Shown here in pieces: positions 33,401 to 52,978 of a DNA stretch of 64,000 bases. Each line of letters starts with the position of its first letter. Position 1 is the first letter of the stretch. Made by a program: the position numbers and the translations under genes. The DNA is from Escherichia coli (GTDB taxonomy: Bacteria > Pseudomonadota > Gammaproteobacteria > Enterobacterales > Enterobacteriaceae), in NCBI RefSeq assembly GCF_003334405.1, contig NZ_QOWM01000005.1, one strand, 5' to 3'. A model generated the notes under the pieces. It was not told the origin of the DNA and made no database searches. It saw only the letters and a program-made list of their open reading frames with translations.

Positions 33401-33766
33401 TCGGTCACGCGCGTGGTGTTGACGATACCGGCCCCTGCCGATGCCAATAGCGAAGAAGTGACGGAAATCCTGCTCACCGCAGCGCGTCGCTGCTCGCTGG
33501 TGATCGACAACCCGGCACCGGAAGTCTTCCTGGTGGATCTGCAACAGGGGATTCAGATTTTCGAGCTGCGTATTTACGCCGCTGAGATGGGTCACCGTAT
33601 GCCGCTACGCCATGAGATCCACCAGCTGATTCTGGCTGGCTTCCATGCCCACGGTATCGATATGCCATTCCCGCCCTTCCAGATGCGTCTGGAAAGCCTC
33701 AACGGTAAACAAACGGGGAGAACGCTGACGTCTGCGGGCAAAGGTCGTCAGGCGGGAAGTTTGTAA
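30443..33766 (+). CDS. mscM: miniconductance mechanosensitive channel MscM (YjeP)
   Basis: 1107-aa ORF, GTG start; periplasmic coiled-coil region, multiple TM helices and C-terminal MscS-like domain. Confidence 0.93.
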   Translation: MRLIITFLMAWCLSWGAYAATAPDSKQITQELEQAKAAKPAQPEVVEALQSALNALEERKGSLERIKQYQQVIDNYPKLSATLRAQLNNMRDEPRSVSPGMSTDALNQEILQVSSQLLDKSRQAQQEQERAREIADSLNQLPQQQTDARRQLNEIERRLGTLTGNTPLNQAQNFALQSDSARLKALVDELELAQLSANNRQELARLRSELAEKESQQLDAYLQALRNQLNSQRQLEAERALESTELLAENSADLPKDIVAQFKINRELSAALNQQAQRMDLVASQQRQAASQTLQVRQALNTLREQSQWLGSSNLLGEALRAQVARLPEMPKPQQLDTEMAQLRVQRLRYEDLLNKQPLLRQIHQADGQPLTAEQNRILEAQLRTQRELLNSLLQGGDTLLLELTKLKVSNGQLEDALKEVNEATHRYLFWTSDVRPMTIAWPLEIAQDLRRLISLDTFSQLGKASVMMLTSKETILPLFGALILVGCSIYSRRYFTRFLERSAAKVGKVTQDHFWLTLRTLFWSILVASPLPVLWMTLGYGLREAWPYPLAVAIGDGVTATVPLLWVVMICATFARPNGLFIAHFGWPRERVSRGMRYYLMSIGLIVPLIMALMMFDNLDDREFSGSLGRLCFILICGALAVVTLSLKKAGIPLYLNKEGSGDNITNHMLWNMMIGAPLVAILASAVGYLATAQALLARLETSVAIWFLLLVVYHVIRRWMLIQRRRLAFDRAKHRRAEMLAQRARGEEEAHHHSSPEGAIEVDESEVDLDAISAQSLRLVRSILMLIALLSVIVLWSEIHSAFGFLENISLWDVTSTVQGVESLEPITLGAVLIAILVFIITTQLVRNLPALLELAILQHLDLTPGTGYAITTITKYLLMLIGGLVGFSMIGIEWSKLQWLVAALGVGLGFGLQEIFANFISGLIILFEKPIRIGDTVTIRDLTGSVTKINTRATTISDWDRKEIIVPNKAFITEQFINWSLSDSVTRVVLTIPAPADANSEEVTEILLTAARRCSLVIDNPAPEVFLVDLQQGIQIFELRIYAAEMGHRMPLRHEIHQLILAGFHAHGIDMPFPPFQMRLESLNGKQTGRTLTSAGKGRQAGSL

Positions 33767-33794
33767 GTTTGTGTGCCGGATGAACCAATCCGGC

Positions 33795-34109
33795 TCACAA
33801 ACAAAACTGATAGCGCAGAAAAAACTGCCACAGCCAGTAGCCGAAAATAGCCAGCGCGGTGGCGTACATAAACCAGCCGCGTTTTTTTCGCCACAAAGCG
33901 AACCAGAGAAAAGGGAAAAAGAGCGGTAACGTCATTATCACACCAACATCACGGGTATCGTCTTCTTCGAGATACATCAACACATCGCAGACGTTGTTAA
34001 TCCCGCGTCCATCAATCATCCACTCTTTGTCCAGCGCGGAAGTGATGGTTATCCAGAGGAACGCCACAATAAACCAGATGCAGCATAAGACAAACATGCG
34101 CGCACTCAT
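33795..34109 (-). CDS. yjeO: inner-membrane protein YjeO
   Basis: 104-aa hydrophobic ORF; start overlaps the yjeN stop by 4 bp. Confidence 0.8.
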   Translation of the reverse strand: MSARMFVLCCIWFIVAFLWITITSALDKEWMIDGRGINNVCDVLMYLEEDDTRDVGVIMTLPLFFPFLWFALWRKKRGWFMYATALAIFGYWLWQFFLRYQFCL

Positions 34110-34420
34110 AAGGTAACCGGTCGCTTAATTTCGCTATAGCGCATACGAAACAAATCGCCGTATCCCACTAATTCCCCGCGAAAAACCAGACATCGGATAA
34201 GATAAGCGCAATAAATATCCGGCAGGTTTCCCCACCGTTTACCATCGCGATCTTTGAGGGTGTTAATGGTGCTACCCACCACCATCGCCACTTTACGGGT
34301 GTGGCAGGCATCGACAAAAGAGAGAATCGTCTGCTCTATTTCCGCTACATCCCCGGCAGAAAATTGCAGCGCCCTGATTTCATCTTCGGTTATTGCCGGG
34401 TCCCGGCTGGTGTCATCCAT
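34106..34420 (-). CDS. yjeN: uncharacterised protein YjeN
   Basis: 104-aa ORF translationally coupled to yjeO. Confidence 0.8.
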   Translation of the reverse strand: MDDTSRDPAITEDEIRALQFSAGDVAEIEQTILSFVDACHTRKVAMVVGSTINTLKDRDGKRWGNLPDIYCAYLIRCLVFRGELVGYGDLFRMRYSEIKRPVTL

Positions 34421-34471
34421 AACATTTCCTGTCTTTACGCCCTATCGTCAGGTAGACGATAGGGCATCGGG

Positions 34472-35974
34472 TTATTCCACCGCCCACTGCGGATTTTTTG
34501 CCACTCTGCTGCAATAGTTCTGGTAAATCGCCATCGCTAACAGCGAGAAGAAGACAGGGCCGCCAATCATCCACAATGTGCTGTCCCAGTCTCCGGCTTC
34601 AACCACAGGTTGAATGATGGTGAAGACGTTCGCAAATGTCACCACCAGTACGACAACCACTGTCGCAATCATTGCCGACAAATGCGTTTTGAAAATCACA
34701 AACGGTCTGTCGAGATCCTGACGTGCTTTAAAGAACGGGAAAGCCAGCGCGAGGAACAGGTAAGGAAGCGTCATAGACACGTTCGCCATCAGCGTCAGCT
34801 TGTTAAAGAACGCCGATGCGGTACCGCCACCAAACGAAACCAGCAGGATGAAGACAGTAACCAACCCGCACTGCATCCACATGGCGATAGACGGCATCCC
34901 CATCGCATTCAGGCGCGTCATCGGTTCCGGCCACAATGCTTTCGGCGTCCCCTGGATGATGGCTTTCAACGGTGAATAGCAAAGCGTAAAGAACGCACCG
35001 GTATAGGCGAGGAACATCGAAAGTCCAGTAATACGCGCAAACCATACGCCCAGCGACAATGACGCTTCAGGTGACAAATGCAGTGCATTACCCAGCGTCA
35101 TCCCAAGGCTCTTCATCAGCACATAGGTAATATTGCCGAGGTTAACGGAACCATTACTTAATACCTGCTGCCAGTTTGTGCTGACGCCCCATAAAAATAT
35201 TGCCAGCGAATAACCGATTGAAATAACAATAGCGGCAAAAACAATACCTTTGGCAAAGTTCTTTTCTGGATTTTCCGTTTTATCGACCAGACCACCAACC
35301 GCTTCAATTCCGCCATAGGCAAAAATGGCAAATACCACAAACGATAGCATTGCCAGACCGGACTGATAACCCGGGTTCGGTGATGCAAGGAAATTAATAT
35401 CCTGCGCGAAATGCCCACCATTTAATAACAAAATAGTAATGCTTACTAACAGCAATACTAAATTCAGACACATTACTGCAATACCGCCCACCGCAGTAAT
35501 GCGGGCAATTTTATTAATCCCCTTAGAAGCAACGACGGTGACCAGAATCATCCATGCCACAGCCAGCAGACCAACCACCTGCGTAGGCTCCAGTCCGGCA
35601 ATACGCCAGTGCTGGGTCATGTCGCTACCATAGAGGAATGTTGAGAACGGTACCCAAACTTTCGCGGAGGTACTCACCATCCAGATGATATAAGAGGAAA
35701 ACCACATAAACGTACCAATGAAGGCAAAACGTGGTCCGACACTATTATTCATCCAGGAATAGATACCGCCTTCTTCTTTGCGATAAGCAGCTCCCATTTC
35801 AGCCATCATTAAGGCGAATGGAATAAAGAATAACAATGCAGAAAATATATAAAAGGGAATCGCACTATAACCCATTAAGTAATAAGCCGATGGGCTATTG
35901 GCAAATCCAAATACGGAAGTAAAGATCATCAATATGAGTCCTATCAGACTCATCTTTTTTATCGTGTGAGGCAT
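34472..35974 (-). CDS. yjeM: APC-superfamily amino-acid transporter YjeM
   Basis: ORF 34472..36016 trimmed to MPHTIKKMSLIG... (500 aa); about 12 predicted TM helices. Confidence 0.88.
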   Translation of the reverse strand: MPHTIKKMSLIGLILMIFTSVFGFANSPSAYYLMGYSAIPFYIFSALLFFIPFALMMAEMGAAYRKEEGGIYSWMNNSVGPRFAFIGTFMWFSSYIIWMVSTSAKVWVPFSTFLYGSDMTQHWRIAGLEPTQVVGLLAVAWMILVTVVASKGINKIARITAVGGIAVMCLNLVLLLVSITILLLNGGHFAQDINFLASPNPGYQSGLAMLSFVVFAIFAYGGIEAVGGLVDKTENPEKNFAKGIVFAAIVISIGYSLAIFLWGVSTNWQQVLSNGSVNLGNITYVLMKSLGMTLGNALHLSPEASLSLGVWFARITGLSMFLAYTGAFFTLCYSPLKAIIQGTPKALWPEPMTRLNAMGMPSIAMWMQCGLVTVFILLVSFGGGTASAFFNKLTLMANVSMTLPYLFLALAFPFFKARQDLDRPFVIFKTHLSAMIATVVVVLVVTFANVFTIIQPVVEAGDWDSTLWMIGGPVFFSLLAMAIYQNYCSRVAKNPQWAVE

Positions 35975-36192
35975 GAAACCATCCTTCATTTCAGCGCGTG
36001 TATAACACGTGCCCACTGAACTGCACTGCGCAACATTGAGCAGGCAGCGTAAAAACCAATACAGAATTGATACCTGGATGATATCAAATATCCAGTCTTA
36101 AATTGTGGCCTTTAACGGAAAAATGAAAACATATGCTACAGAATGGCGCTTATCACGCCATTCTTCGCTGTTAATTCAGTAATTTTTCAGAA

Positions 36193-37170
36193 TTATGCCC
36201 GGTCAACGCTAAAGGCGATGACTTCAGCCAGTGTCTCCGCGCCCAGCGCCAACATCACCAGACGATCAACACCTAATGCCACGCCGGAACAGTCAGGCAT
36301 ACCGACTTTCAAGGCTTCAATCAGATTCTGGTCAATGGGGTGCTGCGGCAAACCGCGCGCCGCGCGCTTACGGTTATCTTGTTCAAAGCGTTGTTGCTGC
36401 TCACGGGCATCCGTCAATTCATGGAAACCATTCGCCAGCTCAATACCTTTATAATAAACCTCAAAGCGTTCAGCGACCCGATGATCTTCGGTACTGATTT
36501 GCGCCAGTGATGCCTGGCTGGCTGGAAAGTGGTACACAAAGGTCGGTTTTTCTTTGCCAATATTTGGCTCTACGCCAAAGGTAAACAGCAATTGTAGCAG
36601 CGTGTCGCGGTCTTCTTCGGTATCAGCAACATTGCTCAAATCCAGTTTCGCTGCGACTTCCCGCAGTTGCGTTTTGTCGGCAGAGAGCGGGTCAATTTCC
36701 AGATAACGCAAGAAAGCTTGTTGATAAGAAAGGCTTTCTGCTGCCGGGCAGTCCAGCACCTGTTGTAAGAGATCGTCCACCTCGTTCATCAACCGGTACA
36801 TATCATAGTGCGGTCGATACCACTCCAGCATAGTGAACTCAGGGTTGTGATAACGCCCCATCTCTTCATTACGGAAGCTGCGGCACAGCTGGAATACCGG
36901 CCCACAACCGGCAACCAGCAGGCGTTTCATATGGTATTCCGGGCTGGTCATTAACCAGAGATTCATCCCCTGCGAATGCCCGGGGCCAACGAAACGTGTC
37001 TCAAACGGGACCAAATGAATATCGGTTACCGTCGCCTGGCTCATACAAGGCGTCTCCACCTCCAGCACTCCACGATCGGCAAAGAAACGACGGATCTCCG
37101 CCATAATCGCCGCGCGTTTTAATAAGTTAGGAATGGATGCGCTCGGCTGCCAGGATGCCGTTTCGCTCAT
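36193..37170 (-). CDS. epmA: EF-P lysine-lysyltransferase EpmA (PoxA/YjeA), class II LysRS paralogue
   Basis: ORF 36193..37215 trimmed to [20 protein letters not shown]... (325 aa); class II aminoacyl-tRNA synthetase catalytic core. Confidence 0.93.
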
Positions 37171-40446: not shown

Positions 40447-42002
<1,556 letters not shown>

Positions 42003-52922: not shown

Positions 52923-52944
52923 TCGTACAGGGTAGTACAAATAA

Positions 52945-52978
52945 AAAAGGCACGTCAGATGACGTGCCTTTTTTCTTG
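52945..52978 (+). terminator. rho-independent terminator of aspA
   Basis: hairpin GGCACGUCAGAUGACGUGCC followed by UUUUUUCUUG. Confidence 0.75.

What the first reader, a model, noticed from the sequence alone, without database searches (positions are those of the whole stretch)
34439..34465. Perfect 11-bp inverted repeat between yjeM and yjeN
gccctatcgtc-aggta-gacgatagggc sits between the yjeM stop and the yjeN start on the coding strand, 7 nt after the stop and 18 nt before the ATG. It has no following U-run, so it is not a canonical terminator. It may act as an mRNA processing or stability element, or as a protein-binding site that sets differential expression of the transporter and the downstream small genes.
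Basis: seen in the sequence. Interest (0 to 1): 0.25.

Follow-up and report, generated by a model that had tools for sequence, protein, structure and literature searches.

The report
Stem-loop ending the yjeM mRNA
The inverted repeat is real and folds into a stable RNA hairpin without a U-run that sits just upstream of the mapped 3' end of the E. coli yjeM transporter mRNA, an ordinary example of the protective 3' stem-loops already described genome-wide.

Summary
An 11-bp perfect inverted repeat with a 5-nt loop lies at 34439-34465, between yjeM and yjeN, which are on the minus strand. The window here is identical to E. coli K-12 MG1655. As RNA it forms a 13-bp hairpin (-23.7 kcal/mol) with no U-tract after it.

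Published Term-seq data (Dar & Sorek 2018, re-analysed in PMC10687069) place the primary 3' end of yjeM mRNA 2-9 nt downstream of the 11-bp repeat. The dominant position is 6 nt downstream (window 34433), just upstream of the yjeN Shine-Dalgarno.

Among 5,426 complete E. coli genomes:
- 2,756 carry this hairpin.
- 2,659 carry a second allele at the same place, with a different stem base but intact pairing (four pairs changed on both sides).
- Loops and flanks vary; the stem does not.
- The hairpin stays whether yjeN/yjeO are present, deleted or replaced.

In other Enterobacteriaceae yjeM also ends in a hairpin that usually lacks a U-run.

Best reading: a 3'-end-defining, exonuclease-blocking stem-loop of yjeM mRNA that uncouples yjeM from yjeNO. 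Rho-dependence is inferred, not shown. It is not a REP element, a canonical terminator or an RNase III site, and an operator is unlikely. It is a new member of a known kind, of low interest.

The parts
34455..34465 (-). 5' arm of the hairpin in mRNA sense (GCCCUAUCGUC)
34450..34454 (-). Loop, UACCU in K-12. It is hypervariable among strains: UACCU, UGCCU, UGUCU, GGCCU, GGUCU.
34439..34449 (-). 3' arm of the hairpin in mRNA sense (GACGAUAGGGC)
34437..34467 (-). Full RNA stem-loop of 13 bp, including the flanking U.G and A-U pairs. dG -23.7 kcal/mol in a 36-nt context.
34430..34437 (-). Published Term-seq peak for the primary 3' end of yjeM mRNA (MG1655 4385376-4385383). The dominant position is 4385380 = window 34433.
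   Evidence: [quoted passage not shown]
34472..35974 (-). yjeM CDS (500 aa, glutamate/GABA-family transporter). The stop codon is at 34472-34474, 6 nt before the hairpin.
34427..34430 (-). yjeN Shine-Dalgarno core AGGA. It lies 8 nt after the 11-bp repeat and is overlapped only by the 3'-most position (34430) of the mapped 3'-end peak.
   Evidence: (sequence)
34106..34420 (-). yjeN CDS (104 aa, uncharacterised). Its ATG is 18 nt after the hairpin.
33795..34109 (-). yjeO CDS (104 aa, DUF2645 inner-membrane protein). It overlaps yjeN by 4 nt.
34375..34510 (-). Approximate extent of the ~130-nt patch that is only 50-60% identical between the two E. coli alleles. It runs from the last 12 codons of yjeM through the hairpin to the first ~15 codons of yjeN, inside DNA that is otherwise 97-100% identical upstream in yjeM and 86-100% identical downstream.

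Best explanation
The repeat is transcribed as the 3' untranslated end of yjeM mRNA and folds into a stable 13-bp stem-loop with no U-tract. This stem-loop defines and protects the steady-state 3' end of the yjeM transcript.

Proposed mechanism. Transcription runs past it into yjeN/yjeO and ends further downstream, either by Rho or after endonucleolytic cleavage. The 3'-to-5' exonucleases (PNPase, RNase II) then trim back and stop a few nucleotides 3' of the stem. The result is a stable yjeM message that ends just before the yjeN ribosome-binding site, so yjeM is expressed separately from, and probably more strongly than, yjeN-yjeO.

Shown: the structure, its conservation, and the position of the 3' end.
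Inferred: where the precursor terminates, which nucleases act, and the effect on yjeN/yjeO expression.
For: 1. Structure. An 11-bp perfect repeat gives a 13-bp RNA stem, dG -23.7 kcal/mol, z -8.2.

2. Mapped 3' end. Term-seq of E. coli BW25113 (exponential phase, LB; Dar & Sorek 2018) was re-analysed by TRS. It gives a 'Primary' yjeM 3' terminus at MG1655 4385376-4385383, dominant 4385380. The local signal is 0.974 and it is significant in all three replicates. The hairpin is MG1655 4385348-4385374, so the dominant end is 6 nt after the repeat. The same table puts the frd operon end 7 nt after its canonical terminator hairpin (window 40853 versus stem 40826-40846 followed by TTTTGT). This validates both coordinates and resolution.

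3. Known class. [quoted passage not shown]

4. Selection on pairing. In 12 variants 98.1% of pair cells are paired. Five pairs change on both sides, and slid controls give only 23-55% paired. Within allele 1, 1 of 22 stem sites varies against 12 of 23 loop and flank sites, Fisher p = 6e-4.

5. Linkage to yjeM. One or other hairpin allele is found in 5,415 of 5,426 complete E. coli genomes. It remains when yjeN, or both yjeN and yjeO, are deleted or replaced.

6. Other genera. In 30 of 50 enterobacterial loci an uninterrupted hairpin of dG <= -10 starts within 45 nt of the yjeM stop, and only 2 of these have a U-run. Most of the remainder show REP-like imperfect palindromes by eye.

7. Read-through exists. 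An RNA-seq assembly joined yjeM, yjeN and yjeO in one transcript.
Against: - Rho-dependence of this particular end could not be checked. The Dar & Sorek supplementary tables and Peters 2012 are not held.
- There is no C-over-G skew typical of rut sites in the 600 nt downstream.
- The 3' end comes from one laboratory dataset. It is absent from the Adams 2021 supplementary files, perhaps because yjeM is weakly expressed.
- The compensatory changes reflect essentially one split between two alleles, so they are few independent events. Template-switch repair of quasi-palindromes could keep a palindrome perfect without selection on the RNA.
- No stability or expression measurement exists.
Confidence: 0.7

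Rival explanations
1. It is a non-canonical intrinsic terminator. The hairpin itself makes RNA polymerase stop and release a few nucleotides downstream without a U-tract, possibly helped by NusA or NusG.
For: The 3' end lies 4-6 nt after a strong GC-containing stem, about the distance seen for true terminators such as frd in the same dataset. The local signal of 0.974 means few 3' ends are seen further downstream.
Against: Only one U occurs in the 8 nt after the stem (GUAAAGAC), and the terminator scan does not call it. From established knowledge, a U-rich RNA:DNA hybrid is needed for efficient hairpin-driven release in E. coli. A transcript spanning yjeM-yjeN-yjeO has been assembled.
Confidence: 0.1
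2. Its main role is translational, like REP elements close to stop codons. A stem starting within 15 nt of the stop hinders the terminating ribosome, lowering YjeM output and triggering cleavage or trans-translation.
For: The stem starts 4-6 nt after the stop in allele 1 and 12-15 nt after it in allele 2. Both are within the limit of fewer than 16 nt reported for REPs by Liang, Rudd & Deutscher 2015, as summarised in PMC12306157.
Against: The stop-to-stem distance is not conserved (about 6 versus 12-15 nt), whereas the stem-to-yjeN-ATG distance is nearly so (16-18 nt). The effect has been shown only for REP sequences, and nothing was measured here. It would not by itself explain a dominant 3' end downstream of the stem.
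Confidence: 0.1
3. It is a DNA palindrome bound by a dimeric regulator, that is, an operator controlling yjeN-yjeO.
For: It is a perfect 11-5-11 dyad lying 18 nt upstream of the yjeN start. RegulonDB lists yjeNO as its own operon, as cited in PMC4168707.
Against: No sigma-70-like promoter is predicted near it. Allele 2 changes four base pairs of each half-site yet keeps complementarity, and the spacer varies freely. The hairpin persists in about 2,400 genomes that lack yjeN and yjeO. The RNA 3' end maps right beside it.
Confidence: 0.04
4. It is a recombination or insertion boundary for the variable yjeN/yjeO segment, or a neutral palindrome kept perfect by template-switch repair.
For: The mscM-yjeM interval is polymorphic. 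One genome, O157:H7 TR01, has a hybrid joined inside the hairpin.
Against: The common deletions do not start at the hairpin. The yjeO-only form is deleted from 9 nt after it, and the form lacking both genes keeps the hairpin, the Shine-Dalgarno and about 13 yjeN codons. The TR01 hybrid is a singleton among 5,426 genomes. The element is single-copy per genome.
Confidence: 0.05

Closest known systems
U-less 3'-terminal protective stem-loops of Rho-dependent or processed E. coli transcripts (Dar & Sorek 2018, PMC6061677)
   Same: It is a stable stem-loop with no U-rich tail. The steady-state 3' end lies a few nt downstream and is narrowly distributed (8-nt peak). The gene is weakly expressed. This 3' end comes from their own Term-seq data.
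   Different: Rho-dependence and PNPase/RNase II trimming are not shown for this site. No C-over-G skew is seen downstream. A translated gene starts 18 nt after the stem.
REP (repetitive extragenic palindromic) elements, e.g. the malE-malF intercistronic REP that stabilises the upstream message
   Same: It is an intercistronic or 3' palindrome that blocks exonucleases and gives unequal expression within a transcription unit. REP elements occupy the same position after yjeM in Citrobacter, Kluyvera and Salmonella.
   Different: There is no REP consensus. It is single-copy per genome, and it is not annotated as REP in NC_000913.3.
Rho-independent (intrinsic) terminators
   Same: GC-containing stem of similar length, loop size and folding energy. 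The 3' end is at a similar distance from the stem.
   Different: No U-tract and no upstream A-tract.

Membership tests
Intrinsic terminator | Stable GC-rich stem-loop | tested here: met
   13-bp stem, -23.7 kcal/mol
Intrinsic terminator | U-rich tract immediately 3' of the stem | tested here: not met
   The tail is GUAAAGAC, with 1 U in 8 nt. The scan gives no hit.
Protective 3' stem-loop of Rho-dependent transcripts (Dar & Sorek) | Precise steady-state 3' end immediately downstream of a stable stem-loop | tested here: met
   Published Term-seq peak at 4385376-4385383, with the stem ending at 4385374
Protective 3' stem-loop of Rho-dependent transcripts (Dar & Sorek) | No U-rich tail and no upstream A-tract | tested here: met
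   Sequence
Protective 3' stem-loop of Rho-dependent transcripts (Dar & Sorek) | Bicyclomycin-dependent read-through (Rho-dependence) | not testable with these tools
   Supplementary Table S2 is not held. Peters 2012 is not held.
Protective 3' stem-loop of Rho-dependent transcripts (Dar & Sorek) | Longer 3' tails in pnp or rnb mutants | not testable with these tools
   Supplementary Table S3 is not held.
Protective 3' stem-loop of Rho-dependent transcripts (Dar & Sorek) | Mild C-over-G enrichment downstream (rut) | tested here: not met
   C/G is mostly 0.5-1.0 in 78-nt windows through yjeN and yjeO. This is a statistical tendency of the class, not a strict requirement.
REP element | REP consensus sequence and many copies per genome | tested here: not met
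   One place per genome in 2,756 genomes. No match elsewhere in the window. No REP feature annotated in NC_000913.3.
RNase III substrate | About two helical turns (~20 bp) of double-stranded RNA | tested here: not met
   The stem is 13 bp. The length requirement is from established knowledge.
Any Rfam family | Covariance-model match | tested here: not met
   Only two chance-level snoRNA matches elsewhere in 33700-36300

The most novel reading that the evidence does not exclude
The hairpin could be more than a passive exonuclease block. It might be a conserved gate that sets how much yjeN-yjeO is made, for example by condition-dependent read-through or by remodelling next to the yjeN ribosome-binding site. 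In that case the two deeply diverged alleles of the ~130-nt patch around it would be kept in E. coli at about 50:50 by selection rather than by drift.
Probability: 0.08. Interest if true: 0.4.

Novelty: new member of a known kind. Interest (0 to 1): 0.15.

Why it matters
It matters little beyond annotation. It explains why yjeM and yjeNO behave as separate units despite a 51-nt gap with no terminator. It also adds a clean, evolutionarily supported example of a 3' stem-loop without a U-run to a class already described genome-wide. The two-allele hairpin with compensatory stem changes is a convenient natural test case for how such 3' structures evolve.

Tried and rejected
- **REP or repeat family:** rejected. 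The element is single-copy and has no REP consensus.
- **Rfam:** no family matches.
- **Recombination or deletion boundary:** I first suspected this because megablast matches broke near or in the hairpin. Alignments then showed that the common deletions begin 9 nt or more downstream. The junction inside the hairpin is a single genome.
- **rut-like C>G skew downstream:** not found.
- **Third allele:** a search for the L009-type variant in complete E. coli genomes found no match.
- **Literature, no data obtained:** Adams 2021 supplements have no yjeM/N/O entries. Choe 2022, the Rend-seq annotation paper, Herzel 2022, the 3'-seq comparison preprint and Dar & Sorek 2018 have no supplementary text held. 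The RepRanger supplements have no entry. Peters 2012 is not held. A search for bicyclomycin plus yjeM found no paper.
- **Proteins:** YjeN, YjeO and the 237-aa protein of the alternative insert have no NCBIfam or PADLOC match.
- **ampC-amplicon papers:** they place many amplicon ends within yjeM but report no fixed site and make no link to this repeat.

Full report
**Observation**

The window around the finding is E. coli K-12. Positions 33713-36113 are the exact reverse complement of MG1655 4383700-4386100. The genes lie on the minus strand:
- epmA
- yjeM, 34472-35974
- yjeN, 34106-34420
- yjeO, 33795-34109

mscM converges on them from the plus strand.

The inverted repeat is exactly as described. 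The arms are 34439-34449 and 34455-34465, 11 of 11 complementary, with a 5-nt loop. Six nt separate it from the yjeM TAA and 18 nt from the yjeN ATG.

Perfect repeats of this size are expected 0.13 times per shuffled window. The other three in the window carry A/T flanks typical of bidirectional terminators. As RNA the stem extends to 13 bp through U.G and A-U pairs. It folds at -23.7 kcal/mol, z = -8.2. The tail GUAAAGAC has one U, and the terminator scan does not call the site.

**What it is not**
- It matches no Rfam family.
- It occurs once per genome and nowhere else in the window, so it is not a REP-type repeat.
- No REP feature is annotated there in NC_000913.3.

**Population survey**

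All 5,426 complete E. coli genomes have mscM and yjeM, but the interval between them varies:
- yjeO-yjeN, as in K-12.
- yjeO only, from an internal yjeN deletion that starts 9 nt after the hairpin.
- Neither gene, for example O157:H7 and BL21-type strains. These keep the hairpin, the Shine-Dalgarno and about 13 yjeN codons.
- A larger insert with an IS630 remnant and a 237-aa hypothetical protein.

The hairpin goes with yjeM in all of these forms.

There are two alleles:
- Allele 1, GCCCTATCGTC-N5-GACGATAGGGC, in 2,756 genomes.
- Allele 2, CAACTCATCGTC-TCTCC-GGCGATGAGTTG, in 2,659 genomes.

Together they account for 5,415 of 5,426 genomes.

The alleles share the top of the stem (AUCGUC/GRCGAU) and differ at its base by changes on both sides of four pairs. 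A further variant, in a genome from the species-representative collection (L009, E. coli strain E69), turns a U.G pair into C-G. That variant has no match among the 5,426 complete genomes. Overall 98.1% of pair cells are paired, against 23-55% when the partners are slid.

Within allele 1 the loop has five versions and the flanks vary, but only one stem site varies, in one lineage. That is 1 of 22 stem sites against 12 of 23 loop and flank sites, p = 6e-4.

The two alleles differ in a sharply bounded patch of about 130 nt. It covers the last 12 yjeM codons, the hairpin and the first ~15 yjeN codons, and is 50-60% identical. The surrounding DNA is 97-100% identical upstream in yjeM and 86-100% identical downstream.

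E. albertii carries allele 2. E. whittamii and another Escherichia lineage carry allele 1.

The caveat is that the compensatory changes stem from essentially one split. Palindromes can also be kept perfect by template-switch repair.

**Other genera**

Downstream of yjeM in 50 enterobacterial loci there is almost always a hairpin before the convergent mscM end. These are REP elements in Citrobacter, Kluyvera and Salmonella. In Enterobacter they are GC-rich stems that are mscM's terminator read backwards. Of the 30 uninterrupted hairpins with dG <= -10 that start within 45 nt of the stop, only 2 are followed by a U-run on the yjeM strand. Salmonella enterica subsp. arizonae has a yjeN homologue preceded by a REP-like hairpin. 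So a hairpin without a U-run after yjeM is a conserved feature even though its sequence is not.

**Transcript evidence**

[quoted passage not shown] It lists this row: + strand, 4385376-4385383, dominant 4385380, signal 0.974, adjusted p of 0, 2.7e-9 and 0 in the three replicates, class 'Primary', gene yjeM. The signal is L/(L+D), the share of local 3' ends relative to local plus downstream ones.

The hairpin is 4385348-4385374. The dominant end is therefore the G six nt after the 11-bp repeat, which is four nt after the 13-bp stem, at window 34433. Only the 3'-most position of the peak (34430) touches the yjeN AGGA at 34427-34430.

As a check, the frd end in the same sheet (4378960 = window 40853) falls 7 nt after the classic frd terminator stem followed by UUUUGU.

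An RNA-seq assembly study found a transcript joining yjeM, yjeN and yjeO, while RegulonDB lists yjeM and yjeNO separately. Some polymerases therefore pass the hairpin.

**Mechanism**

Dar & Sorek showed that Rho-dependent transcripts have precise steady-state ends just after stable stem-loops lacking U-tails. They showed that PNPase and RNase II trim back to these structures. They also found such genes to be weakly expressed.

The yjeM element fits this class in structure and in the position of the 3' end. I therefore propose that it is the 3'-end-defining, exonuclease-blocking stem-loop of yjeM mRNA, and that it leaves the yjeN-yjeO part of any read-through RNA unprotected.

Not shown: that the precursor ends by Rho, since no C>G skew is seen downstream; which nucleases act; and any effect on expression.

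Rivals:
- A terminator without a U-tract.
- A REP-like effect on the terminating ribosome. The stem starts 4-15 nt from the stop in both alleles, within the limit of fewer than 16 nt reported for REPs.
- An operator, which is disfavoured by the compensatory half-site changes, the variable spacer, the absence of a promoter and persistence without yjeN.
- A recombination boundary, which is rejected.

**Verdict**

The feature is real and under selection for pairing. It is best read as an ordinary member of a known class of mRNA 3' stem-loops. Interest is low.

Noticed in passing
window 33767-34471 (mscM-yjeM interval); loci L001-L006, L087-L089: The interval is a presence/absence polymorphism in E. 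coli. The forms are yjeO-yjeN, yjeO only (internal yjeN deletion), neither gene (about 45% of complete genomes, including O157:H7 and BL21-type), or a larger insert with a second yjeO-like gene, a 237-aa hypothetical protein and an IS630 remnant. YjeN, YjeO and the 237-aa protein have no NCBIfam or PADLOC match.
   Followed up: partly
window ~34375-34510: A sharply bounded ~130-nt patch (yjeM C-terminus, hairpin, yjeN N-terminus) is only 50-60% identical between two alleles that split E. coli about 51:49. The flanks are 97-100% identical upstream in yjeM and 86-100% identical downstream. The YjeM C-terminus is ...VAKNPQWAVE in one allele and ...MANKPELALD in the other. The origin (import or ancient dimorphism) is unexplained.
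   Followed up: partly
window 34450-34454: The hairpin loop has at least five versions among closely related strains (TACCT, TGCCT, TGTCT, GGCCT, GGTCT on the mRNA strand), while the stem is invariant.
   Followed up: yes
L001 2985-3015 (E. coli O157:H7 strain TR01): A single genome carries a hybrid: the allele-1 5' arm is joined to a truncated allele-2 hairpin, giving only a weak structure (-11.5 kcal/mol, not better than shuffles). Other O157:H7 genomes have allele 2.
   Followed up: yes
window 33767-33802: A bipartite inverted repeat (GTTTGTG-T-GCCGGAT ... ATCCGGC-T-CACAAAC) sits directly after the mscM stop and contains the yjeO stop codon. It is probably the shared 3' structure of the convergent mscM and yjeO genes.
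   Followed up: no
window 36140-36164: A 9-bp perfect inverted repeat lies in the epmA-yjeM intergenic region, 28 nt after the epmA stop, again without an immediate U-run. No epmA 3' end is listed in the Term-seq sheet read.
   Followed up: no
window 40826-40853; also 52943-52974, 57272-57297, 63355-63380, 8528-8554: These are the other strong perfect inverted repeats in the window. The frd operon terminator (stem followed by TTTTGT) has its published Term-seq 3' end 7 nt after the stem. The three repeats at 52943-52974, 57272-57297 and 63355-63380 have A/T-run flanks typical of bidirectional intrinsic terminators; 8528-8554 was not examined.
   Followed up: partly
L018 4503-4570 (Salmonella enterica subsp. 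arizonae): A yjeN homologue follows yjeM here too. It is preceded by a REP-like hairpin (GCCGGATAAGACCCAACGGGTCGCATCCGGC) instead of the Escherichia hairpin.
   Followed up: no
window 34472-35974 (yjeM): A 2025 laboratory-evolution study (PMC12625342) reports yjeM as the most frequent gene (38%) holding an end point of ampC amplicons, with no single fixed site.
   Followed up: no
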